Shown one piece after another: positions 520-41,238 of a stretch of 64,000 nt of DNA. The notes beneath the pieces were generated by a model, which searched no databases, was not told the DNA's origin, and was given only the letters and a program-made list of their open reading frames with translations. Every line of letters starts with the position of its first letter. The stretch's first letter is position 1. The stretch lies in assembly GCA_026683435.1 (NCBI GenBank), contig GCA_026683435.1_4866.1; one strand, written 5' to 3'. Made by a program: the position numbers and the translations under genes. This DNA is from a phage.

Positions 520-3500
520 ATGCCGAGAGAAGATGCGGCGCAGTTTAACGGTACGCTCAGTACCGCTACTTACCCGAACCGTTATTCGGCGGTCATTCCC
601 GTCGAAGCACCGTTCTATCGCATCGGGTTAACGTTAACCGTTACCGATAAAACAACCGGAACCAAACGCAAGTTAATAGAAGGTCTCGATTATTTCTTAG
701 GACATTACTTCCAGGAATTAGCCGAGGCTGAGAACGATGCAATATACGGCAGCATAATGCTGCTGAACGCCACAGAGGTAGAATACGAGTTACTGTCGGT
801 TGGTCGACAGTATCGCATCCCTGCTTCTGAAATCGGCAAGTATCTGGTTAAGACAGATATGAAAGACCCGCGTAACTGCGATTGGTCTGAGCTGATGAAA
901 TATCCGCCGATTATCTCGCCAATCGACCCGCCAAAAGACCTCGAAGAAGCGATTCTTCACGATGAAATCGTAAAGGCGTTGGAAGATATCCGTCTGGGTA
1001 TTTTAGAGCGCGCCCACGAGCTGGATGAGGCTTTTGCCGAAGTTACCGATTTGATTTATCAGAACGGTAAGCAGGTGTTTGATGACGAAATGTATCAACA
1101 CCACCTGATTAAAAATGCACATGGTTACACCTGCGGTGACATTGGCGCTCTCCCGGTACTCGGCAAAGCCGTAGATGCGACTAAGGCATTCGGACGTACC
1201 CTGGCAGAGCTAGTGACGTTAATGTCTACCAGCGGCATCCAACAGAAACACGTTGACATGCTTCTGGATAATACCCTGGGTGATTTACTGGGCCGTATGC
1301 GTGTTCTGAATAACGACGCGATTACGTTCCAAACAACGTCTGGTCACGTTATCAGCATGAAGGGTGAGAAGTTCATCATCACCTCGACAAAACCGCTGGT
1401 ATTAAAAGCTGACCAGGATAACAACGAACCGGGCATCGCTACGGAGTTCAGTGCTGGTCTGAACACGCTTTGGGTTCACTCGGGTAAAGCAGGTGACAAG
1501 TGGGGCGCTTATGATGCAGGTGTGCTTGCACCTGTGTATAACAGCGTGTATCTCGTTACGCCGGATATGGTTAAGATGTACTTGACCTCGGTGAAGATAC
1601 TTCCAGCAAACGCCTACTTCAAGTCCAGCGACACGTTGAAGATTTACGGCTCTGGTAAAGAAACAAACAAACTTTACATGAATGCGGAGCTGCCTGCAGC
1701 AACCACAACTGTGCAGGGTTTGTTTGCGATTACTAACCTTTCGGCGTCCGCTGCAGCATCCACAGCGATTTCCCAAAAAGCTGTTACTGACTTGAAGAAC
1801 AAACTCGACGGATATGCGGACGACACGTATACAGTCAACGGTAAAGGGTTTGTGTTAGACGAAAACGGTCAAATGCATTTAACCTTAACCGCGTCGGATT
1901 TCGGTATTGAGAAGATGAACAATACCGGGCCGCTGGAGAAACCGGTTACTAACGCGTTGCGCACCGTTCTATCAGGCAAAGCGCTTACAACGCACACCCA
2001 CACCATTGCCGATCTCGATAACGTGCCGTACGCATCCACGTCTGTTACAGGTTTGGCTAAACTGTGGGATGCTATTGACACCACAACAGATAAGATGGTT
2101 ACTGCCCGTCAGGGTTTCTTGCTCGAACAAAAGATCGGTACACTGAACGACAAGATTGCTACGTTATTACCGGCGTGGACTGTCGGCGGATCATCGTACG
2201 GCAACAATAACTTCTTGCCTATACCTGTCCAGGGGAACTACGAAGGGTATACCAAAAACCAAACCTGGCAGAAAGGTTTGGCGCGTTACGAGTCTGGTAA
2301 GGTTTACTCGCTCCGTAACGGTTCTAACGGGAACCCACCTGGTGACTGGGCTATCTATTACGCCTATGCTGATGTGTCGCCAAGCAATACGCTGGAAAAT
2401 ATGCAGCAGACGTCCGTACGTTATCGACCCGCTGGAATGTCGGCGTATCCTGGGGTGAATCTGGTTGCTATTGTGATTACCGGTACCGATGCAATGATCT
2501 GCTTAGGCAGTGACGGTGCGTACTACTTGGTCATCTTCGATGGGACGATTGACCATGCAAAACATCATCGTGTTGTTAAAGTGGTGTTGGGTGATTACAA
2601 GAACGGTAATGGTGCGGGCACAGTAACGACAGCACCGTGGGCTCCAAACGCTTCTACAGACGATTTGATTGTTTGTAATGAACGTGTCTACCTGTTGCGT
2701 ACGGTGCTTACCTCCGGTAACTATTTCGTGAGTATGCGTAGCATCGCACTCAACGAACTTAATCCGGGTGGTAGCAACACGTTTGTGGCGGATGCGTTAA
2801 CAGGCGGGATATTAACGTCGGGTGAAAACGTTTATCTGCGACAGGGACAGAAACGTGCACCTTCCGATGCGCTCCCAGCACCAGTTACACAGATCTACGC
2901 AGACGCGTTAGCGAAGTGGAACAATGCAACCAACTTTGTACATGGTCCTGAGTGTAATCACGCGATTGGTGTTGATGGGCTGAGCTTTCGTGTTGGTTTA
3001 ACGCCAACGGTTTGGTTTGCTTCTACTACAGGGCAAACTATTAACTTTAAACAATGGGTGTCAAGCTTTGTTGTCGACTGTAGCGCATTAACGGTAACGC
3101 TGGAAGGTGCTGATCGATTCCCTATTGTGGCTGATCTTACCACGGTTCGTTATAACGGTGGTACTGAGATTGGGATTCCAAGCCGGAAGTGGGGCGAAGG
3201 TCAAGCTAATAACCGAACCTTTGCAACATCGCAAGACAAGTATATCGTTTCGCAAGGACATGCAGGCGATCGCGACCTAATGCCGATTGTCACGATTACC
3301 ACGTTAGACGACGGTGTGAGTTGGTACGAGTACCTGTCGTGCGACTACAACTTCACTGCCAGAAGGTTTAGTGCGGTAACGTTAAACCAAGGTCGTGGTT
3401 CTATCTACGAGCTGGGTATGGCGTATCCACTGACTCTGGGAGCGAATTCCAGACTTATCTGGTTGTCACAGCCACGTTCCCGTTTGGCAATTGAGGTTGA

Positions 3501-5703
3501 GTTTGATCCGAACACCACTTACTCAGGTAAAGCGGGGTATGGCCCAACTAACAATCGACGTGTAGTGGATTCTACCACGTACGAGAATCTGTCGCAGATG
3601 TGCCACATTGTTACACCGGCGTCGCCTGGTACAGAGTTAAACGGCTGGTATTGCACAGGACCAGAAACATTCCCTTACCACAACGTTTCTGGCACTTTCA
3701 CGATTCATGCCGATCGGTTGACGCTGTCACAAGCCGAATGGGATAAGATGAAGCAGATGATCATCGACGGTGCACCGGCAGGCGCTGCGAATGGTTATGC
3801 TTCGGAATTTATCCTTGCCGCAAATAACGCAGGAAAGGCATTGTTCTCCGTTTGGTTCATCGGCATTGGTACGGCCACACCGCTCACGTTAGCACAAGTA
3901 GCATGTACGCGTACTGTGAACAACGTTAACGTGTTGGATATCTACTACTTTACACTGAAACCAACAATCAGCAACGGGCAGGTAACATTCCCCGCAGCGA
4001 TATTGGCTTTGTTTGACTTCTATAACAACCTCGACTATGACTTGAACTATGCTACGTTGGGAGAGATAACGGGAGGAAAAACACGCCGGCCGGGACAACC
4101 TACCATGGTGTCGGTAGATGGTACGCAGTTCGGGTTGTATCTTCCACACACGTTAACCTTGCGCCAAATTGGCGACTTGGGTGCGCTTAACTACGCTGTT
4201 GGTCTTACGTTGTCTAATGGTACCTGGACGCGTTCTTCTGCTCCACACGGCGTTGGACGTATGGCACCGTCACACACTCCAGTCAGTCCAGCTTATCTGG
4301 CACATCGCGATCAAGTGATGTTACACAACTCATCTCTCGACTACGTCTATTGTGGTGGTATCGCAACGTCGTCGAGAGATTTTGTCGCGGCTCCTAATTT
4401 TAGTGGCCCGACTGAATCGGTTGTCATTGCTGGTGTGGAAACAGCTGAAGGTTGGCTGGTATATGTGACTGAGGAAGTTGACCTGCGTTTCGGCTCGAGC
4501 ACTTATAAGCTGCCTACGTGGTATATTGACCTCAGCGCAGCATTTCCAACAAACCATCAGAACCGGACATTCTACCTGCACGCCAAGGTAGAAAATGGTA
4601 CACCGAAGTACGTAATGGACGTGATTCAACATCCAGACACTGAAACGGAACTCTATATCGGGTATGTTAAAACGGGCTCGTCGCGAGTCGTCGAGACTAA
4701 CGTCGAACATGCTAAGCGATTAGGGGCGGTGAAACAACTGTTGGAACATGCGGCGGTTGAGAATAAGCATGATGTGGAAGTGGGAAGGGACGCAGCAACG
4801 GGCAGACTGGCACCATTGCGTAAAGAAGCGATGGGTCCTTTGTCGATCGATGCTACGAAAGGCTATCTGGATAGTCAGTTGCTTTATACCGTATCTGACG
4901 CACAGCGTCGCGGTAAACCGATGGTCTCCAAACGTTTCGAAGGCTTGAAAACTTTGCCGGCGTTTACTCAGGCAAACAAGTCGGGGGCGTTTTGGAAACA
5001 TCCTACAACAATTGCGACGGTAACGGCCGATGAGAACGGTGAAGCGGCATCGTTGGGAATGGAGTGGGTAGGTATCCCTACGCCTGCTTTCTCTCCGACC
5101 TCAGGAACGATGATAGTGGTGATACAAAGTAAATTCGTCGTCCCAGGTACACCGGGAGTAGAAACGACCTTTAATGTTCACGTTGCCCCATGGGAGGCGG
5201 TGGACGGCTTTTTCTACAACATCGAGGCGGAAGGTACGGATGTTAACATTGACGAAAATCCAGAAGTGTTATTGCCGTCACCACATACCGTGCACCACAA
5301 ACAGCACTCTCTGCCAGCAGGCGTGCCGTGCACCTTTACATTTGTCGCGGCGGTAAGTTCTTCAGCGCTCGAAACAGCTAACCAGCATATTTGCTCTTGG
5401 CTTTTCACGGACGCTGGGGGTCTACCAATCACCACCGATCTTTCGGATAGTAAGATTCAAATCTTACCAGCGGCGGGAGAGACCAACGGCACACCAGTTG
5501 TTCTGAACAGTCGTAGCTACACGTTTACGAATGTGACAGGTGCAATCCCGGTTGTTACCACGGGCGCTCAGGGTTTATTCCCACCACCGATCGTGGCGTG
5601 GGATGGCGATGATCTTACGTTAACGATTGCGCACGATTGGGTGAACGAGAGAGGATGGCAACAGCCTGATATTATCCAGGTCAATCTTATGTTCCGTACC
5701 TAA
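520..5703 (+). CDS. large tail-fibre-like virion protein (about 1727 aa)
   Basis: Uninterrupted 5.2-kb ORF. AGGAG lies 8 nt upstream of ATG 520; the ORF-track start 475 is an upstream TTG inside the terminator hairpin. Gly/Thr/Asn/Ser-rich with an 'ASTSVTGLAKL' fibre-type motif. Function inferred from composition and size. Confidence 0.7.
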   Translation: MPREDAAQFNGTLSTATYPNRYSAVIPVEAPFYRIGLTLTVTDKTTGTKRKLIEGLDYFLGHYFQELAEAENDAIYGSIMLLNATEVEYELLSVGRQYRIPASEIGKYLVKTDMKDPRNCDWSELMKYPPIISPIDPPKDLEEAILHDEIVKALEDIRLGILERAHELDEAFAEVTDLIYQNGKQVFDDEMYQHHLIKNAHGYTCGDIGALPVLGKAVDATKAFGRTLAELVTLMSTSGIQQKHVDMLLDNTLGDLLGRMRVLNNDAITFQTTSGHVISMKGEKFIITSTKPLVLKADQDNNEPGIATEFSAGLNTLWVHSGKAGDKWGAYDAGVLAPVYNSVYLVTPDMVKMYLTSVKILPANAYFKSSDTLKIYGSGKETNKLYMNAELPAATTTVQGLFAITNLSASAAASTAISQKAVTDLKNKLDGYADDTYTVNGKGFVLDENGQMHLTLTASDFGIEKMNNTGPLEKPVTNALRTVLSGKALTTHTHTIADLDNVPYASTSVTGLAKLWDAIDTTTDKMVTARQGFLLEQKIGTLNDKIATLLPAWTVGGSSYGNNNFLPIPVQGNYEGYTKNQTWQKGLARYESGKVYSLRNGSNGNPPGDWAIYYAYADVSPSNTLENMQQTSVRYRPAGMSAYPGVNLVAIVITGTDAMICLGSDGAYYLVIFDGTIDHAKHHRVVKVVLGDYKNGNGAGTVTTAPWAPNASTDDLIVCNERVYLLRTVLTSGNYFVSMRSIALNELNPGGSNTFVADALTGGILTSGENVYLRQGQKRAPSDALPAPVTQIYADALAKWNNATNFVHGPECNHAIGVDGLSFRVGLTPTVWFASTTGQTINFKQWVSSFVVDCSALTVTLEGADRFPIVADLTTVRYNGGTEIGIPSRKWGEGQANNRTFATSQDKYIVSQGHAGDRDLMPIVTITTLDDGVSWYEYLSCDYNFTARRFSAVTLNQGRGSIYELGMAYPLTLGANSRLIWLSQPRSRLAIEVEFDPNTTYSGKAGYGPTNNRRVVDSTTYENLSQMCHIVTPASPGTELNGWYCTGPETFPYHNVSGTFTIHADRLTLSQAEWDKMKQMIIDGAPAGAANGYASEFILAANNAGKALFSVWFIGIGTATPLTLAQVACTRTVNNVNVLDIYYFTLKPTISNGQVTFPAAILALFDFYNNLDYDLNYATLGEITGGKTRRPGQPTMVSVDGTQFGLYLPHTLTLRQIGDLGALNYAVGLTLSNGTWTRSSAPHGVGRMAPSHTPVSPAYLAHRDQVMLHNSSLDYVYCGGIATSSRDFVAAPNFSGPTESVVIAGVETAEGWLVYVTEEVDLRFGSSTYKLPTWYIDLSAAFPTNHQNRTFYLHAKVENGTPKYVMDVIQHPDTETELYIGYVKTGSSRVVETNVEHAKRLGAVKQLLEHAAVENKHDVEVGRDAATGRLAPLRKEAMGPLSIDATKGYLDSQLLYTVSDAQRRGKPMVSKRFEGLKTLPAFTQANKSGAFWKHPTTIATVTADENGEAASLGMEWVGIPTPAFSPTSGTMIVVIQSKFVVPGTPGVETTFNVHVAPWEAVDGFFYNIEAEGTDVNIDENPEVLLPSPHTVHHKQHSLPAGVPCTFTFVAAVSSSALETANQHICSWLFTDAGGLPITTDLSDSKIQILPAAGETNGTPVVLNSRSYTFTNVTGAIPVVTTGAQGLFPPPIVAWDGDDLTLTIAHDWVNERGWQQPDIIQVNLMFRT

Positions 5704-5750
5704 CAGATAGCGCTATGGGGCAAGGAAGCCCCAATCAAAGGAGTTTGGCA

Positions 5751-6953
5751 ATGGCCGAAATCATTCATCAGTACCCGCTCGACCTTACCGGGACATTAAC
5801 GTCGAACGCCGTTACACGGCGTATTACGTTAGGTTCTGGTAAAGTTAACCGGGCTTTTGCTTTTCCTGACGGAGCTTTCTACGCGGATACCTTCCGCTTG
5901 GCAGCTGCGAATAAACCAGGTGTCTACCCGTACAAACGCGGTACAGACTACGAACTGATTTTTGCACATACTGCATATCAGAAAATGACCAAGAACCGTG
6001 AAGTGGTCATGGGTGTGGTGGTAACTAACTCGGCCATTCCTACTGATATCGAAGTCTCTGCGCAAGTCGTTGGTGGTTTTCAGTCTGCGAACGTCGAAGG
6101 CATCCGACAAGCGATTGCGTCGTTGAAAATTGAAGACCGTGTGGTGGACTTCAAGGATCTTCGAAACGTACCCGATACGTTCCCGTCCGCCCCGACGTAT
6201 AAAGACCTTGGCGATATCTACGGTTTTGAGTATATCATTACCGTACTCGCGGGGATTAAAGATGCGATTAACTCCGGCTCTGCAGTACAGCTGGAAGAAA
6301 TTAAAGGTATTCTGGATGGTCTGAAAAACGACTTCCTCGACGCCTTAAATACCCACATCAACGCCGAAGGTAACGTACACAATCTCGACATTCATCAGGT
6401 TAATGGCCTGACGGAGACGGAGATTCGTGCCCTGATTCAAAGTGTACAGACTGCCATTGACGCCACTATCAAAGATATCGGCGACTTAAGAGCAGCAGAC
6501 ACAGCGTTGGGGCAACGCATCGATGCAATTGTGGCTTCGTTAGCCGCGTGGAACGACCAGCTTAACGTGGTTGCTCAAAATTACCAGAAAATGTCGTTAG
6601 CATTAGCTAACCTTAATTCTCTGGTGTTGCAATTACAGAAGATGGTTAACGATCTTCAGTCTGCACTGAATAAAACAAATCAGCGCGTCACGGATCTTGA
6701 GAATCAGGGCAAAGACTTCCAACAGCAAATTGATAACCTGCAAGGACAAATCAACAGTCTTAAAACTCAGGTTGTAAATAACACCAACGCAATTTCGCAG
6801 GCAAACCAGAATCTGGCGAACCATGCGGCTGCGGATAACCCACACCCGAATTACCTCCATAAACAGTATGGCGGTGTTGTGCAGGCTGCTGTTCACGTCA
6901 ACAACAGCCTCACCTCGCGCGACGATGTTCAAGCTGAAGCGGGTACTAAGTAA
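5751..6953 (+). CDS. fibre-associated protein with long C-terminal coiled coil (fibritin- or tail-fibre-like)
   Basis: AAGGAG lies 9 nt upstream of ATG 5751; the ORF-track ATG 5715 has no RBS. C-terminal half is heptad-like and Q/N/L-rich (LQLQKMVNDLQSALNKTNQRVTDLENQ...). Confidence 0.65.
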   Translation: MAEIIHQYPLDLTGTLTSNAVTRRITLGSGKVNRAFAFPDGAFYADTFRLAAANKPGVYPYKRGTDYELIFAHTAYQKMTKNREVVMGVVVTNSAIPTDIEVSAQVVGGFQSANVEGIRQAIASLKIEDRVVDFKDLRNVPDTFPSAPTYKDLGDIYGFEYIITVLAGIKDAINSGSAVQLEEIKGILDGLKNDFLDALNTHINAEGNVHNLDIHQVNGLTETEIRALIQSVQTAIDATIKDIGDLRAADTALGQRIDAIVASLAAWNDQLNVVAQNYQKMSLALANLNSLVLQLQKMVNDLQSALNKTNQRVTDLENQGKDFQQQIDNLQGQINSLKTQVVNNTNAISQANQNLANHAAADNPHPNYLHKQYGGVVQAAVHVNNSLTSRDDVQAEAGTK

Positions 6954-6965
6954 CTTGTTTACGAG

Positions 6966-7007
6966 CCGGACTATGTTTATGGACATAGTCCGCTCGTTCT
7001 ACTTTTT
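6966..7007 (+). terminator. hairpin plus T-run (terminator or attenuator) upstream of the Cys-repeat peptide genes
   Basis: 10-bp perfect stem CGGACTATGT/ACATAGTCCG with a 6-nt loop, followed by TTCTACTTTTTAA. Confidence 0.4.
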
Positions 7008-7018
7008 AAGGAAGCGTA

Positions 7019-7411
7019 ATGGCGATATCTATTAAAGACGTCAGAAACCGCGTCCAGATAGTCGAAGCTAACATGGCGACAGGCCCCCGTATCGACGCGC
7101 AAGTGGCCTCTAAAGCCCATAATGCGGCAGACCGATTTGGGGGTTGGACGAAAGCACAGCTAGATTGCGGCGGGACATGTTCTTGGACGTGCTCTAACGG
7201 TTGCTCGCATGGCTGTTCGAGCTGTTCAGGAAGCTGTTCTGCTTCTTGTATCGGTAGCTGTTCTTCGACGTGTGGCGGTAACTGTTCTGGTTGCTCTGGT
7301 TGTTCTGGTGGTTGCAGTAGTAGCTGTACCGGTAACTGCTCAGGTGGTTGCGGGGGGGCTTGTTCTTCCAATTGTTCCGGAGCCTGCTCCGGTGGCTGTT
7401 CAGGTCGCTAA
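7019..7411 (+). CDS. Cys/Ser/Gly-repeat small protein 1 (130 aa; putative RiPP-like precursor)
   Basis: AAGGAAG RBS. About 50-aa Cys-free N-terminal region conserved with the next two ORFs, then about 80 aa with about 21 Cys mostly as C-S-x-x units. Confidence 0.6.
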   Translation: MAISIKDVRNRVQIVEANMATGPRIDAQVASKAHNAADRFGGWTKAQLDCGGTCSWTCSNGCSHGCSSCSGSCSASCIGSCSSTCGGNCSGCSGCSGGCSSSCTGNCSGGCGGACSSNCSGACSGGCSGR

Positions 7412-7421
7412 GGGGGATTAA

Positions 7422-7826
7422 ATGGCAATTGGATTAAAAGAACTGAATAACCGATTAAACACGATCGATGCAAACGCTTTAAAGAACACCACGAATGTGC
7501 AAAACTACATTCGCAATAAAGCTACGAATAACGCCGACTTGTTCGCAGGTCAAGGTCGTTCGCACTACGACTGTGGTGGTACGTGTTCTTTTAGCTGCTC
7601 AAGTTGCTCTGGCGGCTGCACAGGGTCTGCGACAGGTGGTTGTGGGTCGACTTGTTCCGCAAACTGTGTATCAGGCTGTAGCAGCAGCTGCACGGGCTGT
7701 AGCTCTTCGTGCTCTGGTGGTTGTAGCGGCACGTGCACAGGCAGCTGTTCTGGGGGTTGTGGTAAATCCTGCTCCGCAAACTGCTCAGGTGCGTGCTCTG
7801 GTGGTTGTTCAGGTCCTAACTCCTAA
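7422..7826 (+). CDS. Cys/Ser/Gly-repeat small protein 2 (134 aa; putative RiPP-like precursor)
   Basis: AGGGGG RBS. Paralogous to 7019-7411 with the same leader-like N-terminus (MAI..K.(V/L)(R/N)NR(V/L), ..NAAD(R/L)F.G, ...(H)YDCGGTCS) and about 20 Cys in the core. Confidence 0.6.
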   Translation: MAIGLKELNNRLNTIDANALKNTTNVQNYIRNKATNNADLFAGQGRSHYDCGGTCSFSCSSCSGGCTGSATGGCGSTCSANCVSGCSSSCTGCSSSCSGGCSGTCTGSCSGGCGKSCSANCSGACSGGCSGPNS

Positions 7827-7841
7827 CTGACGGAGGCTTAT

Positions 7842-8048
7842 GTGATCAGTCTCAAGACTATTCGAAACCGTCTCGTTACGGTAGAAGGTTACATTACAAC
7901 CGCACAGGCAAACAACTATATTGCTAACCAGGGCACCGTGTCGACCACAAATAACCTGGCTGGCTTACCGCTTTCTCACTATAACTGTAATGGTGGGTGT
8001 AGCTGGTCCTGCAGCGGAAGCTGTAGCCGTGGAGCGGGGAATCGATAA
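7842..8048 (+). CDS. Cys/Ser/Gly-repeat small protein 3 (68 aa; short-core paralogue)
   Basis: GGAGG RBS with a GTG start. Conserved leader-like N-terminus (MISLKTIRNRL...LSHYNCNGGCSWSCSGSCS) and a short core with 4 Cys. Confidence 0.55.
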   Translation: MISLKTIRNRLVTVEGYITTAQANNYIANQGTVSTTNNLAGLPLSHYNCNGGCSWSCSGSCSRGAGNR

Positions 8049-8070
8049 CAGAAAACGTTCGGAGTATTAA

Positions 8071-8958
8071 ATGAAAAACGATTTGCATCTTGCGTATAAA
8101 ACCACATTCAACCACCCGCTGCATCTATCTTCCCCAGATTCAGTGCGTGCACACCTTGCTGACAAAGTCAGACTGATTGCACAGATTCCTGGTGAGTGGC
8201 CAAAGGTTCGTGGTCGCTTCTTGACCGACAAGAAGAACTACACCGTAGAAAATACGTTTAAGATCCGTGATATGGTTGCAGAGGCCATCGTTATCTTTAA
8301 CGGCGATGGTAACTCTCGTGGCGTGTTAGTCGACGGTAAGTATTTCTTCAGTGAAGGGATTTTGAACAACAGCGTCGATTTAGAACTGATGTTTACACCG
8401 TTTGACGAACTTGAAGCAAAACCGATGGCGCGCCGTTGGTGGAGTCCGGACTATCTGGGCTCGTTCCCTTACTACTTTGTACTGGTACCTGCCGATACGG
8501 AAACGTATTTCGACACCGAACCATACATCGATATCGAGGGGTATAAAGAACTCGGCATCACCCGTTTAGCGGACATGATGGCGTATAGCTATAAGTTCGT
8601 GTGGGATAAAAAGCGTTCTGTCTGGTATGCGCTGACTGACGATTTTGAAATCACCAAACGTATTCGTAAGCCGTGGATGCAACACCTGGTTCAAACCCGA
8701 TATGGGGATTACCCGGCGACAGAAGCGGACTTGAGTAAGCTGGTAAGCTTCCTCTTAACAAAGGTGGATTTAACGAAAGAAGAAGCAGAAGCTGTTTCTG
8801 AGATTCGTGGTCGTTCGGTAACGTTGGCCGATTTGAAACGTCTGAACGAAAGACACGCCGACCTGAACAAAATTTTAGCTGCCTATCACGACCCGATGTT
8901 ACTGGTGCCTGGCGCTAATGTAGACGAAGATCCTTTATTCGCCATTGATTATATTTAA
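8071..8958 (+). CDS. hypothetical protein (295 aa) in the rSAM cassette
   Basis: GGAG RBS. Co-oriented and tightly packed between the peptide genes and the rSAM genes. No motif recognised. Confidence 0.65.
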   Translation: MKNDLHLAYKTTFNHPLHLSSPDSVRAHLADKVRLIAQIPGEWPKVRGRFLTDKKNYTVENTFKIRDMVAEAIVIFNGDGNSRGVLVDGKYFFSEGILNNSVDLELMFTPFDELEAKPMARRWWSPDYLGSFPYYFVLVPADTETYFDTEPYIDIEGYKELGITRLADMMAYSYKFVWDKKRSVWYALTDDFEITKRIRKPWMQHLVQTRYGDYPATEADLSKLVSFLLTKVDLTKEEAEAVSEIRGRSVTLADLKRLNERHADLNKILAAYHDPMLLVPGANVDEDPLFAIDYI

Positions 8959-8980
8959 AAATATACTGGAGCAACCTGCA

Positions 8981-9895
8981 ATGACAGATCAAGTAGAATC
9001 CAGGATCTCGTCTGAACTGTACGACAAACCGTCAATTCTGTCGGTTGTCGCAACTTCTAAGTGTAACTTAGACTGTAGCTTCTGTGGAGGGGCTTATTAC
9101 ATGGATAGAGAAGATACTTCTCGTGAGTTTCAACGTGAAGAGATTCTCTCGATTTTAGAGAAGAATCCGGATATCGGTGAGATTCATTGGACGGGCGGTG
9201 AGCCGCTGTTAGCGCAGCGTAAGATTGAAGACTTCGTGAACGAGTTGAAGGAGTCTCATCCTAACCTCCGTCATCACATGTACACCAACGGTTTAAAGAT
9301 GCGTAAATCACATCTGCCGTTGCTGAAACAGTTCGACCTTATCTTTGTGTCCATTGACGGCTACAAGAAGTCGGAACGTCCGTTTATGAACTTTGTAAAC
9401 GGTGGTAATCACGAAGCGCTGGAAGTGCTGTACGAGCTGGACAACTATTACACCTGGGGTGTGATGACGCGTGACCAGTTAGGCGATAAACGCTGGTACG
9501 AAGATTTCATCGAGCTGCACCGAGCAATCTATCATTACCGTCCAGGTGGTGTGTCGTTGTTGTTTGATGCGATGATGCCGAAACCGTTATCGCCAGACCA
9601 CGTCATGAACTTCATGTACGGGTATTGGAAAATACTCGACAATATCGAACGCCTTAACATGCAGAACGATTCTGAATGTGGGCTTGCGATCAGTAAAATG
9701 TTCGATACCGAGTGCAACACGTGCAGTGAAGTGCTGTGGCTTAACGCCGACGGTACGCAGGAGCAAATTCAGAACGCCCCAGAGATATTGGAAGTCGGCT
9801 GTAATCGCCTGGCGCGTTCTATCGGCGTTGATGCGTATAACTACATCAACCGTGTAATTTCTGCTAAGCGTAAACGGGCGGCGAACAATGAGTAA
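8981..9895 (+). CDS. radical SAM enzyme (about 304 aa)
   Basis: CNLDCSFC (CX3CX2C) near the N-terminus, GGEPLL glycine motif, and C-terminal Cys cluster (C-x11-C-x2-C). ATG 8981 has a GGAG RBS; the ORF-track start 8945 is a TTG overlapping the previous gene. Confidence 0.8.
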   Translation: MTDQVESRISSELYDKPSILSVVATSKCNLDCSFCGGAYYMDREDTSREFQREEILSILEKNPDIGEIHWTGGEPLLAQRKIEDFVNELKESHPNLRHHMYTNGLKMRKSHLPLLKQFDLIFVSIDGYKKSERPFMNFVNGGNHEALEVLYELDNYYTWGVMTRDQLGDKRWYEDFIELHRAIYHYRPGGVSLLFDAMMPKPLSPDHVMNFMYGYWKILDNIERLNMQNDSECGLAISKMFDTECNTCSEVLWLNADGTQEQIQNAPEILEVGCNRLARSIGVDAYNYINRVISAKRKRAANNE

Positions 9896-11216
9896 TAGCG
9901 AACAGCAAATCCAGTACACACCACGCACGTATCAGGTTGTGACTAACCTGTCATGTAACCTGGACTGCGAATACTGCTACGAGCGTAAATATCCGCGTAA
10001 CAACAAAGTAGCAGACGTGATTGATTTTATCCACGCTTGTTTCGAGCGTGATAAAGATATCCCGAACGTTGAAGTCATCATCGATATCATCGGTGGTGAG
10101 CCGTTCATGCAGCCTAAACTTCTTTTGGCGGCCTTTGAAACCGCAGAGAAGTTATGCGCAGAACACAATCGCCCGTATATGTTCAGTATCTCCACGAACG
10201 GTACGCTTCTGGACCGTCCGCTGAACAAAGAAATTATCGAGCGCTGGAAAGACAAACTGTCTATTGGGGTCTCCATCGATGGTTTACCTGAAGTCCATGA
10301 CAAATATCGTATCTTTACCACGACGCGTGAAGGGTCGTACGAAGCTGCGGTACGCGGTTACAATTATCTGAAGAGTGTTGGCATCGCTGAGCTGGGCGTA
10401 AAGGCGACGTTTACGATCGATACATTGCCGCACTATGCCGCCAGCATGAAATCGTTAATTGACATGTCCGGCGGTGGTACCATCTCTGGTAACGTAACGT
10501 ACGAAGATATCCTGCCGCGCCATATGGCGTTGGATATCGCGAACCAGATGATGGACGTGATGGACTACTGGATTGAGAAGGGTCTGCACACCAACCCGCG
10601 TAACACGATTACACACATCATCCCGGATGGCCTGAACTTTATGGCAACTTGGGACCCGGATTGGCGTGACAAACTCTTACATGACGACTCTGTTCGTCTC
10701 GACCCAGAACGCCTGAAACCGTACTGCGGTACGTTGACGCACATGACCTGTCTCGGCTTTGATCGCAAGATTTACGGTTGTAACCGTTTCATGTCCACGG
10801 TAACTTCCCGCTCTGCTGTAGCAGAACTGGTCGGTCGTGAGTTTGTGAGCCTGGACGGTGGTAAGCTGTTAGAAGAGATTCAAACGCAGTACACCAACTA
10901 CCCAGAAACCTGTTTAGGGTGTCCGATGAAACACAGCTGCGGTAGCTGCGCAGCAGCATCGTACGAAAACGGTGAAGGTACACTGGAAGACCGTAAAGCG
11001 TATCATGCCGAGCGTCGTCAGTGTGGTTGGACTACTGCGAAGCTGATGGCGGCGGAATATTGGTATCAGAAAACTGGTACGACCCGCGCATCAGATTTGC
11101 ATGATAAATCCATGTGCTATTGTTCACGTTGTGTACGCCAACGTGCTGAAGCAGAAAAATTACAAAACGGAGCCCAGAATGAAGTCAATACTGATTCACA
11201 ATTTTACGAAGCGTAA
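9888..11216 (+). CDS. radical SAM enzyme with SPASM-type C-terminal domain (anSME-like RiPP maturase fold)
   Basis: CNLDCEYC (CX3CX2C), GGEPFM, STNGTLL and SIDG motifs, and C-terminal CLGCPMKHSCGSC plus further Cys. Start overlaps the stop of the previous rSAM gene (ATGAGTAA). Confidence 0.8.
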   Translation: MSNSEQQIQYTPRTYQVVTNLSCNLDCEYCYERKYPRNNKVADVIDFIHACFERDKDIPNVEVIIDIIGGEPFMQPKLLLAAFETAEKLCAEHNRPYMFSISTNGTLLDRPLNKEIIERWKDKLSIGVSIDGLPEVHDKYRIFTTTREGSYEAAVRGYNYLKSVGIAELGVKATFTIDTLPHYAASMKSLIDMSGGGTISGNVTYEDILPRHMALDIANQMMDVMDYWIEKGLHTNPRNTITHIIPDGLNFMATWDPDWRDKLLHDDSVRLDPERLKPYCGTLTHMTCLGFDRKIYGCNRFMSTVTSRSAVAELVGREFVSLDGGKLLEEIQTQYTNYPETCLGCPMKHSCGSCAAASYENGEGTLEDRKAYHAERRQCGWTTAKLMAAEYWYQKTGTTRASDLHDKSMCYCSRCVRQRAEAEKLQNGAQNEVNTDSQFYEA

Positions 11217-11745
11217 ACTGCACTTGGTCGATCGCTTCCTGCGCAAAAGCAAGCTGTACAATGTGCACGCAATTGTGGCAGGGGAAGACTTCACTGATGA
11301 AATCCAAAGCCTGTTGATTAAATACGGGCTGAACGTGATGATCCCGGTCTACTGCGTTGAGAAAGGACACGAGTCTGTCGCGGAAATCGAAAAGCGCAAT
11401 CCTGGCTTTGAGAAGCGACTGCTCGCATACCCACGCCACAAAATCGAACTGCTACGTCATTCCATCGATGAAGCCAGTCCTGAAAGTTTAGTGGCTTTGG
11501 GCTTGTCTTTCCCGCGGATGCGTATTCGTAACTTACGCTCCAATAATCCGGTCGACGCGTATTACACAGAGCGTCAAATCTTCGAAGAACACCTGCTCCC
11601 GCAGTTGGAAGAAGAAGAGCAACACAACATTTCTGTGTTGTGGGCCGGTAACCTCGATCAGGACTTCCAGATGCTGGACTTCGGTTTGTTGTTAGAACTT
11701 GGCCTGATTGAGGAGGACGAATGTCTGTTACTGACAAAAGCTTAA
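11179..11745 (+). CDS. hypothetical protein (about 188 aa), cassette accessory candidate
   Basis: ACGGAG upstream of ATG 11179. The ORF-track start 11101 lies deep inside the rSAM gene. Confidence 0.55.
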   Translation: MKSILIHNFTKRKLHLVDRFLRKSKLYNVHAIVAGEDFTDEIQSLLIKYGLNVMIPVYCVEKGHESVAEIEKRNPGFEKRLLAYPRHKIELLRHSIDEASPESLVALGLSFPRMRIRNLRSNNPVDAYYTERQIFEEHLLPQLEEEEQHNISVLWAGNLDQDFQMLDFGLLLELGLIEEDECLLLTKA

Positions 11746-12392
11746 CGAACGAAGAGATCCGCGCCCGTTATTTCCAGCGTGATTTGCCGATTGATCGTCA
11801 CGGTAATTTCATGGAACGAATCGGTGCGCAGGATCAGGGTCGTACCGGATTTTGTGCATTACTCCATTACCATCTCATCGAAGGGATGTCTGATAAAGAA
11901 GCCCTGGCACGTATGAAGCTGTATGAGATGTCGGAGATTGAAGCTAACTTCACATTGAAACGCACGAAAGAGTTTATTGCTAATGTGCTGGAGATTGACC
12001 TCGACGAAATTCGCGGGAATCTGAAATCCACCGCACGTTACATTTACGAAGACGTGCAGAAGATGCTGTTGGAACTTGACCACCGCTACGAAGATGAGCG
12101 TCATGGTTATATCGAGTTTGAAGGTAGCCACTTTCAAGCCGATGAATCGTCGCGCGCCATCCTCGGTCAATACATTCAGGCAGATACCGCACCAGAATAC
12201 TGGCTCGATACGCTGAATACTAAGCACAGTCCGTTTACAGTAGACCAATGTAAAGCGTTGTTGGGCGCTATTGTTGCACGCGACCAGGTGTTGCACTCAG
12301 CAATGGCAGATAACAAACGCCAAATCCGTGAGTTAGCTGAAAAGCGCGATTACACCGGTTTAAAAACATTGTCCGAATCACTCGGCATGTAA
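11721..12392 (+). CDS. hypothetical protein (223 aa), last gene of the rightward block
   Basis: GAGGAGGA RBS. Overlaps the previous gene by 25 nt and is followed by a strong terminator. Confidence 0.65.
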   Translation: MSVTDKSLTNEEIRARYFQRDLPIDRHGNFMERIGAQDQGRTGFCALLHYHLIEGMSDKEALARMKLYEMSEIEANFTLKRTKEFIANVLEIDLDEIRGNLKSTARYIYEDVQKMLLELDHRYEDERHGYIEFEGSHFQADESSRAILGQYIQADTAPEYWLDTLNTKHSPFTVDQCKALLGAIVARDQVLHSAMADNKRQIRELAEKRDYTGLKTLSESLGM

Positions 12393-12406: not shown

Positions 12407-12450
12407 GGCCCTACCTCCCCGAAGGGAGGTAGGTACCTTTTATTTATTTC
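12407..12450. terminator. bidirectional intrinsic terminator at the strand-polarity switch
   Basis: Stem CTACCTCCC/GGGAGGTAG with CGAA loop, flanked by T-runs on both strands, between convergent genes. Confidence 0.65.
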
Positions 12451-33856: not shown

Positions 33857-33887
33857 TAACTCTCACCTAAGTAATATATATCTGAAA
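33857..33887 (-). promoter_or_regulatory. conserved upstream motif, copy 1 (putative phage promoter or operator)
   Basis: TAACTCTCACCTAAGTAATATATATCTGAAA on the plus strand, identical to 52611-52641, about 45-75 nt upstream of the ATG. Confidence 0.5.
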
Positions 33888-38349: not shown

Positions 38350-38411
38350 TTTAAGTGCTCCTTAATACATGACATAAGCTCTGATTGAAACGTAAATTTC
38401 AGAGGTTCACT

Positions 38412-38431
38412 GAGATAATATCTATCTGAAA
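38412..38431 (-). promoter_or_regulatory. conserved upstream motif, copy 2
   Basis: GAGATAATATCTATCTGAAA on the plus strand, directly downstream of the terminator hairpin of the preceding gene. Confidence 0.45.
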
Positions 38432-38477: not shown

Positions 38478-40637
38478 TTACTGATATATTTTGATTTGTG
38501 GGTAACTATAGCTATAGCTATCGCTATCAACATCCTGACCGACAAACAAAATGCCTGTGTTAGAAAACGCCGCGCTGCAATACAATGTTAGCCCGGCGGG
38601 GTTAGAAATCGTATTACCGTAGTAGGCGCTGTAGCGCATGTACTTACCGTCATTCTTCACAAACAGGCTGCCTAACGATCCAACCATTCCGAAGATCAAA
38701 CAAGCACCATCGGGAGAAACACAGACATTGCCGTTCGGATATCGAGTGGATGTTACACTATAATCAATTTCCGTGTAATCCAACTCACGTGTCGCCACCC
38801 AACCATCGGCGCGTTTTTCGAAGATGTTGTATTTGTGGGTTTCAAGGACGGATACCAGTATGACTGAAAAGTTCGAAGATGCTGCCACCTTCAACGTCGA
38901 GGCTTCTGCTAACCCTGGGATGTCTAGCTTAGCGGTTTCAACATAGAGTCCTTCTGAACCTTTAGTTACGATATGAACAGATTTTCCATTGTGCTCTGAA
39001 AAAGCAACGCTGGTGCCATCGGCGGTCATCGCAATACTGTCGTACGAACCACACAGAGCACCAGAATCGTCGAAGTCAAACGTGAGCGTTTCGTAATTTG
39101 AAAACCCATCACTTTTTTGGTAAACAGCTATTTCGCGCGTACCATTCCCAACGAACAGTGTCTCTCCGTCCGGGGTGAGTTTGACCAACTTACCGTTTAC
39201 ACCGGTGGCCGGGAGATTGGTAATTGCTGTTGGCGTCACTTTGCCCCACGGCATGTCGGCACTGTTGTCGTAAACCAGCACTGCGCCCTTCGTTGTTTCC
39301 CCAGTTATCGCGGAAGGAATCCCGACGACGAACAAATCGCCTGACTTGTTTATCGATACCGGACAACGCCCATCGGTTTCCGCATTTTCACCAGTATCAA
39401 AAGTTAGATCCATCAGAATGCTGGCATCGTGTCTATAGCCTGGGAAATCTTTTCTATATATAGAAATTGTAGTTGAACGCTTTGCAAGTGGAGTGGTAAT
39501 CAGTACATTTGCATCGCTACTACAATCCAATTCTGCACCCAACGAATAATTATTTTCCGAAGACACGTTCAACGACTGGAATTCATTCGATGGGTATACG
39601 TTTCGGCTTATCTTTATCCGATAAGGATCGGACCACTGTCCGACGGTGTCCTCACCACGATATCTGACGCGTAGCCAATAACTACTACCGTATTGAAGCA
39701 CGTTATCCGGCAGAGTTATCGTTGTAAGGTTTCGCATATCGAACAATGAAGAGAATGGTAGGTTGCTACTAGGACTAAAATCTAACGTATCGCCATAGTT
39801 ATAATAGAGTTTCCAATCTGTAGCAATATGCGTTTCCGTGCCTGAAGTTTCAAACGTCGATGTTTCTATCGTTAAACCTGACGGTCCGTTCACATCGGTT
39901 GGGGTTGGCGACACTATCGTCGGTTTTTGGATTGTGGTCTCTATTACCGAAAACATGGTTACTGACCAGTCACTATTAACCGTATCTGAGTGAAATTTAG
40001 CACGGGCGTAATACGTCTTGTTTCCTACCAGTGTGCCGGGTGGTAAAGTTAGAAATTTTTTAGCATCCTGAGATTCGAGCAATTGGTAAACCGTAGTGGA
40101 AAAATCTTCATTTTCAGACACTTCCCAACTCGTCGCTCTATGAGGTGTTGTTTGAAACGGCCTTGCAGTGAAGCCATTGAGGATAAAATCCAGATCACTA
40201 GCTGAACTAGAACCGTAGTACGGGGAAATCCATGTAGGCGCGTCCACTACATTAGAGACCACCTCAATTTCATAGGTTTTGGTGATGCCGTTAGCAGAAA
40301 CGGTCAGCGTAATAATTTGTCCTAACTGCCGAGGATCTTCGATAAACAACGTATAGTTTAAACCTCCATAATGCCTGATTATTGCTTCAGGGCACGTTAC
40401 CTGATAAACCGACGGTTCTTCATTACCGGCAATGTAAAAAAACGTTTCCCTGCCTAGAATGCATTTTTTTTCATCTCCGTCGGAAAAGATTACAGTGAAT
40501 GATGACTCTGCAGAAGCATCTGACAACGGTATCTTGTATTCGATTCCATCCTTACTAAATAAAACAACCCCACCCGTTTTATCCCCAGTAAATTCAGGCA
40601 GTTCGTGTAAACGTTTCTTTTTGACTACAGTTGCCAT
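38478..40637 (-). CDS. large hypothetical protein (719 aa)
   Basis: Long ORF. An FN3-like/beta-rich architecture is a guess from Ser/Thr/Gly-rich composition. Confidence 0.65.
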   Translation of the reverse strand: MATVVKKKRLHELPEFTGDKTGGVVLFSKDGIEYKIPLSDASAESSFTVIFSDGDEKKCILGRETFFYIAGNEEPSVYQVTCPEAIIRHYGGLNYTLFIEDPRQLGQIITLTVSANGITKTYEIEVVSNVVDAPTWISPYYGSSSASDLDFILNGFTARPFQTTPHRATSWEVSENEDFSTTVYQLLESQDAKKFLTLPPGTLVGNKTYYARAKFHSDTVNSDWSVTMFSVIETTIQKPTIVSPTPTDVNGPSGLTIETSTFETSGTETHIATDWKLYYNYGDTLDFSPSSNLPFSSLFDMRNLTTITLPDNVLQYGSSYWLRVRYRGEDTVGQWSDPYRIKISRNVYPSNEFQSLNVSSENNYSLGAELDCSSDANVLITTPLAKRSTTISIYRKDFPGYRHDASILMDLTFDTGENAETDGRCPVSINKSGDLFVVGIPSAITGETTKGAVLVYDNSADMPWGKVTPTAITNLPATGVNGKLVKLTPDGETLFVGNGTREIAVYQKSDGFSNYETLTFDFDDSGALCGSYDSIAMTADGTSVAFSEHNGKSVHIVTKGSEGLYVETAKLDIPGLAEASTLKVAASSNFSVILVSVLETHKYNIFEKRADGWVATRELDYTEIDYSVTSTRYPNGNVCVSPDGACLIFGMVGSLGSLFVKNDGKYMRYSAYYGNTISNPAGLTLYCSAAFSNTGILFVGQDVDSDSYSYSYPQIKIYQ

Positions 40638-41188
40638 TATACATCGTCTCCGTAGGTTAACACTGCATCATCACCGATGCATAAAACAGTTTCTTCATCC
40701 AGACTTGCCACAGCTTCTTTTTCATTAAACGCCGTGAATGTAAAGGTAGCCGTCCAAGCCGGTGAATCGTCACTCATCGCTGCAATCAATGGCTCGTTTG
40801 TTGGTGTAATAACCCCTGTCGAGATGTCTTCACGTGACAAGTTTAAACCGCATAACTGGTTTACAACTGTCGCTAAATCAGCATAGGTGTCGCCGGGAGC
40901 TACAGTAACCAGTATCGGTCCTTGCGGGTCGATAATCTTATTAGCGACTAGACGGTCGTAATAGACGGTAACCTTCTTGCCGTTAGGTTTACGTGCTTTC
41001 GCAATGTACGCTTGCGAGGTACGGGCACTTTCAACACCTAAGTCGATTGGCCCTACTCCGCTTATCACAATCTCGTCAGGCGATAATGACAAGCCGTTAT
41101 CGTGATTAATCAACGCCACGACAAGCGCTTTCGACGAGAGTGTTAGGTCTGGCTGATAGCGGTCTGCCATTAACGCCTCCAGAAACAA
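40637..41188 (-). CDS. short member of the fibre-associated paralogue family (183 aa)
   Basis: N-module 'VTVYYDRLVANKII'. Located outside the main array. Confidence 0.65.
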   Translation of the reverse strand: MFLEALMADRYQPDLTLSSKALVVALINHDNGLSLSPDEIVISGVGPIDLGVESARTSQAYIAKARKPNGKKVTVYYDRLVANKIIDPQGPILVTVAPGDTYADLATVVNQLCGLNLSREDISTGVITPTNEPLIAAMSDDSPAWTATFTFTAFNEKEAVASLDEETVLCIGDDAVLTYGDDV

Positions 41189-41224
41189 AAAAATAAGCTA
41201 CCACACATATGATCGTGTGGTAGC
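41184..41224 (-). terminator. intrinsic terminator
   Basis: Stem CTACCACAC/GTGTGGTAG, then T-run on the minus transcript. Confidence 0.5.
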
Positions 41225-41238
41225 CTACTCGTACGCTG

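What the first reader, a model, noticed from the sequence alone, without database searches (positions are those of the whole stretch)
6966..7007. Perfect 10-bp hairpin with T-run immediately upstream of the peptide genes
Seen: CGGACTATGT-TTATGG-ACATAGTCCG followed by TTCTACTTTTTAA sits between the coiled-coil fibre gene and the first Cys-repeat ORF. Inference: a terminator or attenuator that separates fibre-gene transcription from the peptide/rSAM cassette, implying separate regulation.
Basis: seen in the sequence. Interest (0 to 1): 0.35.

Follow-up and report, generated by a model that had tools for sequence, protein, structure and literature searches.

The report
Terminator hairpin with promoter start inside
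The hairpin after the fibre gene of this SPN3US-like giant Salmonella phage is real and conserved, most likely ends fibre-gene transcripts, and appears to carry in its loop the start site of a phage-polymerase promoter for the downstream peptide and radical-SAM genes.

Summary
The window is an SPN3US-like jumbo phage (Seoulvirus). The perfect 10-bp stem is 6967-6976/6983-6992 and extends, past one bulged C, to 15 bp (6961-6997). A U-rich tail follows (TCTACTTTTT), then the Shine-Dalgarno sequence and the ATG at 7019.

It is not chance: the window has 13 perfect stems of at least 10 bp against 0.27 in shuffles, and all 13 are intergenic.

Sixteen distinct orthologous spacers from four named genera plus metagenomic relatives keep a hairpin at this spot, built from different, co-evolved arms. 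G·U pairs make it stronger on the sense strand. This points to a sense-RNA terminator, and most relatives have a canonical T-run directly after the stem.

New here: the loop's TATGG is invariant in all 16. Together with TTAC at 6959-6962 it forms TTAC-N15-TATG. That motif occurs 9 times in the window against 2.2 expected. It is spacing-specific and concentrated in intergenic DNA. It recurs in Erwinia phage Huxley and has the same geometry as the mapped phiKZ middle promoter P78M, where the G of TATG is +1.

My reading: a terminator for the fibre operon overlaps a phage-RNAP promoter whose start, G6981, lies in the loop. Transcripts from that promoter lack the 5' arm and escape termination. No transcript ends have been mapped. 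Interest is moderate.

The parts
5715..6953 (+). Upstream gene: 412-aa coiled-coil virion or fibre protein (SPN3US gp167, 'virion structural protein 20'); stop codon TAA at 6951-6953.
   Evidence: ORF list; SPN3US annotations; only sub-threshold coiled-coil Pfam hits.
6959..6962 (+). TTAC box, the predicted -22 to -19 element of a phiKZ-middle-type phage-RNAP promoter. It overlaps the base of the hairpin's 5' arm.
   Evidence: 'AC' is invariant and 'TTAC' is present in 14 of 16 distinct orthologs. TTAC-N15-TATG is enriched and spacing-specific. Same spacing as phiKZ P78M (PMC4666361).
6961..6997 (+). Hairpin: outer stem 6961-6965/6993-6997, bulged C6966, perfect inner stem 6967-6976/6983-6992, loop 6977-6982 (TTATGG).
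   Evidence: MFE -23.7, z -6.6. Orthologs all fold at the same place. Arm-swap test. Sense-strand bias.
6978..6981 (+). TATG initiator motif in the loop. G6981 is the predicted transcription start (+1), equivalent to NC_027402 position 144258 on the minus strand.
   Evidence: TATGG is invariant in 16 distinct orthologous sequences while the stems differ. In phiKZ, TATG is essential for nvRNAP, with G = +1, and is read on the single-stranded non-template strand (PMC4666361, PMC12809450).
6998..7007 (+). U-rich tail TCTACTTTTT (7 of 10 T), the predicted release zone for transcripts coming from the fibre operon.
   Evidence: Tails in orthologs are T6-T7 runs or T-rich, mostly with a TTAT motif as in phiKZ terminators (PMC10914365).
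7008..7021 (+). Shine-Dalgarno AAGGAAG (7008-7014) and ATG (7019-7021) of the first Cys-repeat peptide ORF. The predicted 5' UTR is 38 nt.
   Evidence: AAGGA and the ATGGC start context are invariant in orthologs. The predicted 5' UTR is 34-41 nt in all lineages, with no conserved fold.
7019..12392 (+). Downstream unit that the embedded promoter would drive: three Cys-repeat peptide ORFs (7019-7411, 7422-7826, 7842-8048), a 295-aa ORF, two radical-SAM genes (8981-9895, 9888-11216), and two more ORFs.
   Evidence: No strong terminator-like site and no exact promoter motif lies inside the unit.
12410..12433 (.). Bidirectional GC-rich terminator hairpin (UUCG loop on the minus strand, T-runs on both sides), the likely 3' end of the cassette unit.

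Best explanation
The element does two jobs within a 65-nt spacer. First, in RNA made from the upstream fibre/baseplate operon (gp168-gp167), bases 6961-6997 fold into a hairpin of 15 Watson-Crick pairs (16 with the U6977·G6982 wobble). A U-rich tract follows. The hairpin acts as a factor-independent terminator and 3'-end stabiliser for the phage's multisubunit RNA polymerase. It is probably somewhat leaky in the SPN3US lineage, because the T5 run sits 5 nt from the stem. Second, the same DNA carries a promoter of the phiKZ 'middle' type for the phage RNA polymerase, with TTAC at -22 to -19 (6959-6962) and TATG at -3 to +1 (6978-6981). Initiation would therefore occur at G6981, inside the hairpin loop. 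RNA started there contains only the 3' arm. It cannot form the terminator, so it runs on through the T-tract into the Cys-peptide and radical-SAM cassette, as far as the bidirectional terminator at 12410-12433. Shown here: the structure, its conservation and co-evolving arms, the sense-strand bias, the invariance of TATGG and (T)TAC, the statistical reality of the motif, and its geometric identity with a mapped phiKZ promoter. Inferred: that termination and initiation actually occur at these sites in SPN3US-type phages.
For: Identity of the window: 97-98.5% identical to SPN3US-type Seoulvirus genomes. Structure. Not chance. Conservation: 16 distinct orthologous spacers from Seoulvirus, Machinavirus, Erskinevirus, Wellingtonvirus and IMG/VR contigs all place a hairpin in the spacer a short distance after the stop codon, with z scores of -4.0 to -6.8. 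Co-evolved arms: hairpins made from a lineage's own 5' and 3' halves average -20.6 kcal/mol, against -11.4 for chimeras between lineages; most chimeras between lineage groups fall between -6 and -14. RNA-level, sense-strand structure: in 13 of 13 sequences the plus-strand fold is more stable than the minus-strand fold, by up to 7 kcal/mol, because of G·U pairs. Terminator tails: relatives carry T6-T7 or T-rich, TTAT-containing sequence right after a GC-rich stem base, like the phiKZ terminator motif (PMC10914365). Promoter: TATGG and the AC of TTAC are as invariant as the SD and the start codon. TTAC-N15-TATG occurs 9 times against 2.18 expected, with 0 of 100 shuffles reaching 9. Six of the nine hits fall in the 8.8% of the window that is intergenic (P = 3e-5), and five of those six sit upstream of, and in the sense of, the next gene; in the sixth (13125) the ATG of TATG is the gene's own start codon. 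With TRTG, 9 of 14 hits are intergenic (P = 4e-7). The other spacings tested (N10, N12-N14, N16-N18, N20) give 0-2 hits each, and only one of those, at N17, is intergenic. In Huxley, 3 of 3 exact hits fall in the 4.2% that is intergenic. At an orthologous promoter site elsewhere in the genome, TTTAC and TATG are conserved while the spacer has diverged. phiKZ P78M, a mapped middle promoter, reads AAAATTACC...TATG, which is exactly TTAC-N15-TATG (PMC4666361). The 111-nt interval is 100% identical in about 30 isolates whose flanks differ by 1.5-3%.
Against: No 5' or 3' RNA ends are available for any SPN3US-type phage. In the window's own lineage the T5 run is 5 nt from the stem, the inner stem is AT-rich, and the consensus terminator scan did not call it. 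A single-register covariation count was only modest: 72% of cells paired, and a +3 slide scored as well. This is because the inner stem is rebuilt in different registers in different lineages. In Erskinevirus the box reads AAAC rather than TTAC. Purified phiKZ nvRNAP does not transcribe middle promoters in vitro (PMC4666361), so the enzyme or factor that uses TTAC-TATG promoters is unknown. Apart from one possible case at 41191-41230, which has no TTAC box, no other promoter site in the window or in Huxley has a hairpin around its TATG, so the overlap is not a general rule.
Confidence: 0.55

Rival explanations
1. It is an intrinsic terminator and nothing more. On this view the conserved TATGG loop and the upstream TTAC are kept for reasons of terminator efficiency or loop stability, or simply by shared ancestry, and the cassette is expressed only by read-through or from some other promoter.
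For: Hairpin plus T-rich tail is conserved, and the tails in relatives are canonical. Other promoter-motif sites have no hairpin at their TATG.
Against: Other terminators in this genome mostly use UUCG or GNRA-type tetraloops with GC-rich stems, so a TATGG loop is not a general terminator requirement. TATGG stays invariant while every stem position turns over. The exact N15 spacing to TTAC matches an independently enriched, spacing-specific intergenic motif and phiKZ P78M.
Confidence: 0.2
2. It is a DNA-level promoter hairpin. The inverted repeat extrudes, either as a cruciform or as a hairpin on the non-template strand, and presents TATG single-stranded to the phage RNA polymerase. This would supply the unknown 'strand-opening' determinant of TATG promoters, by analogy with phage N4 virion-RNAP hairpin promoters. 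Termination would be secondary or absent.
For: phiKZ nvRNAP reads TATG on the single-stranded non-template strand, and the extra specificity determinants are unknown (PMC12809450). TATG sits at the loop or the loop/3'-arm junction in every lineage.
Against: G·U (G·T) pairs make the minus-strand arm much weaker in most lineages, by up to 7 kcal/mol, which argues against a two-stranded cruciform. The five other intergenic exact TTAC-N15-TATG sites, the near-matches aligned with them, and phiKZ P78M and p119L show no such hairpin. T-rich tails are conserved downstream, as expected for an RNA terminator.
Confidence: 0.1
3. It is an RNA processing or stability element, or a protein-binding site. 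The hairpin would be cut by RNase III, or bound by a phage or host protein that recognises the UAUGG loop. This would set differential stability of the fibre and cassette mRNA segments without terminating transcription.
For: The stem is long (15-17 bp) and selected on the sense strand, and the loop is sequence-invariant.
Against: There is no Rfam match. This reading does not explain the conserved T-rich tails, the TTAC box, or its N15 spacing.
Confidence: 0.1
4. It is a transcription attenuator in the 5' leader of the peptide operon, as the reader suggested as an alternative.
For: It has a hairpin plus T-run directly upstream of an operon.
Against: There is no room for a promoter and leader upstream, because the fibre stop codon is 5 nt before the TTAC box. 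No alternative anti-terminator fold was seen, and no Rfam leader matched. The predicted start lies inside the hairpin.
Confidence: 0.03

Closest known systems
Factor-independent (intrinsic) terminators of phiKZ-like jumbo phages (Putzeys et al. 2024, PMC10914365; 201phi2-1, PMC11512511)
   Same: A stem-loop in the sense RNA after a stop codon, followed by T-rich sequence. Most orthologs carry the 'TTAT' tail seen in the phiKZ terminator motif. It sits in a phage that transcribes with its own multisubunit RNAPs.
   Different: The stem is AT-richer. The loop is a conserved TATGG rather than the W-rich or UUCG loops of the other terminators in this genome. In the SPN3US lineage the T-run is offset by 5 nt.
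phiKZ middle promoters, e.g. P78M (AAanTTACc box plus TATG start; Ceyssens 2014 as cited in Yakunina 2015, PMC4666361)
   Same: A TTAC box and a TATG separated by exactly 15 nt. It lies in intergenic DNA in the sense of the downstream gene, with an AT-rich upstream flank.
   Different: The upstream flank here is T-rich rather than A-rich. No TSS has been mapped in SPN3US-type phages. Here the spacer and the start site are occupied by a terminator hairpin.
Promoter-coupled terminators of bacteria (Fletcher et al. 2026 preprint, 10.64898/2026.08.19.745784)
   Same: Terminator and promoter for adjacent tandem units share the same short intergenic DNA. The other sites in this window (hairpin, T-run, TTAC-N15-TRTG) resemble that layout, with the T-tract abutting the promoter box.
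   Different: In the bacterial case the termination site lies about 10 bp upstream of the start site, and the stem DNA doubles as the -35 element. Here the order is reversed: the predicted start is in the hairpin loop and the release site is about 20-25 nt downstream of it. The polymerase is a phage enzyme.
Phage N4 virion-RNAP hairpin promoters (recalled from my own knowledge, not checked here)
   Same: A promoter whose key bases sit in or next to the loop of a DNA hairpin.
   Different: N4 hairpins are short (5-7 bp stem, 3-nt loop) and are recognised as DNA by a T7-like single-subunit RNAP. Here the pairing is biased to the sense-strand RNA, and the other promoters of the same motif lack hairpins.

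Membership tests
Intrinsic (factor-independent) terminator | Stable stem-loop in the sense transcript, downstream of a stop codon | tested here: met
   A stem of 15 Watson-Crick pairs (16 with the closing U·G wobble) begins 8 nt after the TAA. MFE -23.7 kcal/mol, z -6.6. The sense strand is favoured in 13 of 13 orthologs.
Intrinsic (factor-independent) terminator | U-tract immediately (0-2 nt) after the stem | tested here: inconclusive
   In the window the tail is UCUACUUUUU, so the T5 run starts 6 nt after the stem, and the consensus scan did not list it. Orthologs such as Huxley, Asesino and L018 have T6-T7 flush with the stem.
Intrinsic (factor-independent) terminator | Structure maintained by compensatory evolution | tested here: met
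   Arm-swap test: a lineage's own arms give -20.6 kcal/mol against -11.4 for chimeras. The single-register pair count is only modest: 72% paired, and 0 of 500 shuffles reached the covariation score, but a +3 slide scored equally well.
Intrinsic (factor-independent) terminator | RNA 3' ends map to the U-tract | not testable with these tools
   I found no Term-seq or RNA-seq data for SPN3US-type phages.
phiKZ-type middle promoter (TTAC box plus TATG start) | TTAC-containing box about 22-24 nt upstream of the start | tested here: met
   TTAC at 6959-6962, which is -22 to -19 relative to G6981. 'AC' is invariant, and TTAC is present in 14 of 16 orthologs.
phiKZ-type middle promoter (TTAC box plus TATG start) | TATG with G as +1, at the same spacing as in mapped phiKZ promoters | tested here: met
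   The TTAC-N15-TATG spacing is identical to phiKZ P78M. TATGG is invariant in 16 orthologs. The motif is spacing-specific and enriched in intergenic DNA in two genomes.
phiKZ-type middle promoter (TTAC box plus TATG start) | A-rich flank (AAan) 5' of TTAC | tested here: not met
   The flank here is TTGT, and the other sites in the window are mostly T-rich, because terminator T-tracts abut the box.
phiKZ-type middle promoter (TTAC box plus TATG start) | Primary transcript 5' end at the G of TATG | not testable with these tools
   No TSS data exist for this phage group.
Transcription attenuator or leader terminator | Promoter and leader upstream of the hairpin, with an alternative anti-terminator structure | tested here: not met
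   The stop codon of the upstream gene is 5 nt before the TTAC box. Only one dominant fold is predicted, there is no Rfam leader, and the predicted start lies inside the hairpin.
N4-like DNA hairpin promoter or cruciform | Pairing possible on both DNA strands, or on the recognised strand as DNA, and a hairpin shared by the promoter class | tested here: not met
   The minus-strand fold is weaker in all 13 orthologs, by up to 7 kcal/mol. The other sites with the same promoter motif lack hairpins. A hairpin on the non-template strand alone cannot be excluded.
Rfam cis-regulatory RNA families | Match at the gathering score | tested here: not met
   No matches at gathering score in the whole window, and only chance-level hits locally.

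The most novel reading that the evidence does not exclude
The hairpin could be a conserved 'promoter-inside-terminator' switch. Initiation from the loop would make the cassette's own transcripts immune to the terminator. Polymerase bound at TTAC/TATG, or short RNAs started at G6981 that are complementary to the 5' arm, would in turn change how efficiently fibre-operon transcripts terminate. That would couple two temporal classes within 65 nt. A further possibility is that the inverted repeat centred on TATG helps open the DNA for the phage nvRNAP, which would supply the still-unknown specificity determinant of TATG promoters.
Probability: 0.12. Interest if true: 0.7.

Novelty: new variant of a known kind. 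Interest (0 to 1): 0.4.

Why it matters
A hairpin with a T-run after a phage structural gene is ordinary on its own. Two things here are worth a specialist's attention.

First, this gives a usable, statistically supported promoter consensus for SPN3US, Machinavirus and Erskinevirus jumbo phages: TTAC-N15-TRTG, the same geometry as phiKZ P78M. No transcription maps were found for these phages.

Second, it is a conserved case in which the predicted start site sits in the loop of the preceding gene's terminator. That layout predicts clean insulation of a RiPP-like peptide and radical-SAM cassette from late fibre transcription. It also offers a simple natural template for asking what, beyond the four bases TATG, tells jumbo-phage RNA polymerases where to start. 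The phiKZ structural papers state this as an open question.

Tried and rejected
- **Single-register covariation.** I ran RNAalifold on the MAFFT alignment, then an Infernal model with the count of structure pairs. Sequence conservation of TATGG fixed the alignment, and the inner stems are in different registers in different lineages. Only the outer 5 bp came out, and the statistics were modest. I replaced this with per-sequence folds and an arm-swap test.
- **Rfam.** Nothing found.
- **Sigma-70 promoter and terminator consensus scan.** It did not flag the site, and host-type promoters are fewer than chance, as expected for a phage that does not use host RNAP.
- **TSS-in-loop as a general architecture.** I looked for it across the window and 50 kb of Huxley. 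Only one further candidate turned up (41191-41230, minus strand), and it has no TTAC box. My scan's loop filter also missed the focal site itself, so that scan is incomplete. I could not find the ortholog of the 41.2-kb hairpin in the Huxley segment.
- **Published transcript maps or promoter tables.** I found no SPN3US transcriptome. The supplements of the phiKZ and 201phi2-1 ONT-cappable-seq papers are not held, and Ceyssens 2014 is not held.
- **Small ORF from the loop ATG.** Considered and rejected. There is no SD, and the ORF is not conserved: in Huxley it is about 8 codons.
- **Conserved structure in the predicted 5' UTR.** None found.

Full report
**What the window is.** The 4 kb around the finding is 97-98.5% identical to Salmonella jumbo phage SPN3US and its relatives (Seoulvirus). 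These are phiKZ-like phages that transcribe their genomes with their own multisubunit RNA polymerases (PMC7598289). The gene ending at 6953 is SPN3US gp167 ('virion structural protein 20', a coiled-coil protein). The gene before it, 520-5703, is gp168, a 188-kDa baseplate/fibre protein. Downstream lie three paralogous leader-plus-Cys-repeat ORFs (7019-7411, 7422-7826, 7842-8048), a 295-aa ORF and two radical-SAM genes.

**The observation.** The sequence is as described.
- The perfect 10-bp stem is 6967-6976/6983-6992 and the loop is TTATGG (6977-6982).
It pairs with ACGAG (6961-6965) across one bulged C (6966), so the stem is 15 bp.
- The tail is TCTACTTTTT (6998-7007), followed by the SD AAGGAAG (7008-7014) and the ATG at 7019.
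- The 57-nt spacer folds at -23.7 kcal/mol, z = -6.6.
- Perfect hairpins with stems of at least 10 bp number 13 in the window against 0.27 in dinucleotide shuffles, and all 13 are intergenic. The hairpin is therefore not a chance feature.
- The simple terminator scan missed it because of the bulge and because the T-run is not flush with the stem.

**Conservation.** I collected the orthologous spacer from 15 GenBank relatives and 5 IMG/VR contigs. These cover Seoulvirus, Machinavirus, Erskinevirus, Wellingtonvirus and an unnamed lineage at about 76% protein identity. They give 16 distinct sequences.
- Every one has a hairpin in the spacer a short distance after the stop codon, with z from -4.0 to -6.8.
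- The stems are made of different sequences. Examples: CGGACTATGT/ACATAGTCCG here, GGGGTCATGTT/AACATGACCC in STsAS, GAGGACCTGTC/GGCAG-GTCCTC in Machinavirus and Erskinevirus, and CGGGCCTCGTC/GGCGAG-GCCCG in Wellingtonvirus.
- A single-register pair count was only modest, because the inner stems sit in different registers.
- A register-free arm-swap test is clear. A lineage's own 5' and 3' halves fold at a mean of -20.6 kcal/mol, against -11.4 for chimeras between lineages.
- In 13 of 13 sequences the plus-strand fold beats the minus-strand fold, by up to 7 kcal/mol, because of G·U pairs. Selection therefore acts on the sense RNA rather than on a two-stranded cruciform.
- In most relatives the stem base is GC-rich and is followed at once by T6-T7 or by T-rich sequence containing TTAT. 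This matches the phiKZ terminator motif (PMC10914365).
- Together these points support an intrinsic terminator for the fibre operon. In the SPN3US lineage the U-tract is offset, so it may be leaky.

**The unexpected part.** In the alignment of the 16 sequences, the loop TATGG is invariant. So are the AC of an upstream TTAC, the SD and the start codon. Everything else turns over.

TATG is the initiator of phiKZ nvRNAP promoters. Its G is +1, all four bases are essential, and they are read on the single-stranded non-template strand (PMC4666361, PMC12809450). phiKZ middle promoters add an AAanTTACc box upstream.

Here TTAC (6959-6962) and TATG (6978-6981) are 15 nt apart. Evidence that TTAC-N15-TATG is a real motif:
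- It occurs 9 times in the window against 2.18 expected, and 0 of 100 shuffles reached 9.
- Six of the nine hits lie in the 8.8% of the window that is intergenic (P = 3e-5). Five of those six sit upstream of, and in the sense of, the next gene. In the sixth (13125) the ATG of TATG is the gene's own start codon.
- With TRTG, 9 of 14 hits are intergenic (P = 4e-7).
- The other spacings tested (N10, N12-N14, N16-N18, N20) give 0-2 hits each, and only one of those, at N17, is intergenic.
- In 50 kb of Erwinia phage Huxley (about 66% nucleotide identity), 3 of 3 exact hits fall in the 4.2% that is intergenic, in the sense orientation.
- At an orthologous site elsewhere (window 46718 and Huxley 741), TTTAC and TATG are conserved while the spacer has diverged.
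- The mapped phiKZ middle promoter P78M reads AAAATTACC-...-TATG, which is exactly TTAC-N15-TATG.

I conclude that the motif is the SPN3US-group counterpart of that promoter class and that the focal spacer contains a full copy. The predicted +1 is G6981, in the loop. The predicted 5' UTR is 38 nt here and 34-41 nt in all lineages.

**How the pieces fit.** At the other motif sites in the window the order is: GC-rich UUCG-loop terminator, T-run, TTAC-N15-TRTG, SD. This is a tandem terminator-promoter layout reminiscent of bacterial promoter-coupled terminators (10.64898/2026.08.19.745784).

The focal spacer is only 65 nt, and there the two elements are superimposed. TTAC overlaps the base of the 5' arm, the 5' arm fills the N15 spacer, and the start is in the loop. 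A transcript begun at G6981 has only the 3' arm and cannot form the terminator, whereas transcripts arriving from gp167 can. The arrangement has been kept through four genera, which suggests it is functional and not merely tolerated.

**Rivals.**
- Plain terminator with an incidentally conserved loop: confidence 0.2.
- DNA-level hairpin that presents TATG to the polymerase: 0.1. The strand asymmetry argues against it, as does the absence of hairpins at other sites of the same motif.
- RNA processing or protein-binding element: 0.1.
- Leader attenuator: 0.03, because there is no room for an upstream promoter and no alternative fold.

**Limits.** Everything about function is inferred. I found no TSS or TTS maps for this phage group. 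Purified phiKZ nvRNAP does not use middle promoters in vitro (PMC4666361), so the enzyme form that would use this promoter is unknown.

**Verdict.** The more informative result is the embedded, conserved TTAC-N15-TATG promoter with its start in the terminator loop. This is a new variant of known element types and of moderate interest (0.40). It can be tested directly by mapping 5' and 3' ends.

Noticed in passing
window 7019-7411, 7422-7826, 7842-8048 (+): Three paralogous ORFs with a conserved N-terminal leader (MAIS/GLK..RNR..) and C-terminal Cys-repeat cores. They are not annotated in the SPN3US GenBank or RefSeq records, which instead annotate an out-of-frame 111-aa ORF (window 7495-7830). 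Several relatives annotate antisense ORFs across them. They are followed by a 295-aa ORF with no Pfam hit and two radical-SAM genes, so the region looks like a RiPP-type cassette.
   Followed up: partly
window, minus strand: 38373-38395, 46718-46740, 52665-52687, 54283-54305; near-matches at 32964, 51059, 53393, 58903, 59621, 61715: Recurrent intergenic layout: a GC-rich hairpin, commonly with a C-UUCG-G loop, then a T-run, then TTAC-N15-T(A/G)TG, then the SD. This is probably the standard terminator-promoter junction of this phage group. The consensus is not described in the papers I could read.
   Followed up: partly
window, minus strand: 33869-33882, 38413-38426, 46039-46052, 52623-52636, 54324-54337: The AT-rich motif GATAKATRTTAYYT occurs 5 times against 0.21 expected. 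All hits are intergenic and in the sense orientation. It resembles the AT-rich early (virion-RNAP) promoters of phiKZ-like phages. Three of the five share a spacer with a TTAC-N15-TATG site, which suggests dual promoters.
   Followed up: partly
window 41191-41230 (-): A second long hairpin (17 bp including G·U pairs, followed by a T-run) has TATG at the loop/3'-arm junction, just upstream of gene 40637-41170. There is no TTAC at N15, so it could be chance. I did not find its ortholog in the Huxley segment.
   Followed up: partly
window 12410-12433: A perfect 10-bp GC-rich hairpin with T-runs on both sides, between convergent genes. It is a likely bidirectional terminator that closes the peptide and radical-SAM unit.
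   Followed up: no
window 54280-54291 (-), within site 54283-54305: The TATG of this promoter-like site lies at the centre of a perfect 12-nt palindrome, TAGCATATGCTA.
   Followed up: no
L023 about 4636-4720 (IMG/VR contig; fibre homolog at 26% identity): In this distant relative a GC-rich hairpin lies wholly between a TTAC and a TATGG (TTAC-hairpin-ATT-TATGG). The two boxes are 33 nt apart in the linear sequence but would be brought close if the hairpin formed.
   Followed up: no
L004-L015 (Machinavirus and Erskinevirus orthologs), start codon of the first peptide ORF: In these lineages the peptide start codon context is also TATGGC (ACGTATGGC), repeating the loop's TATGGC. Seoulvirus has TAATGGC instead.
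   Followed up: no
window 6930-7040: This 111-nt interval is 100% identical in about 30 SPN3US-type isolates whose surrounding 4 kb differs by 1.5-3%. Several of the SPFM assemblies show small indels nearby, so their matches come back in two pieces.
   Followed up: partly
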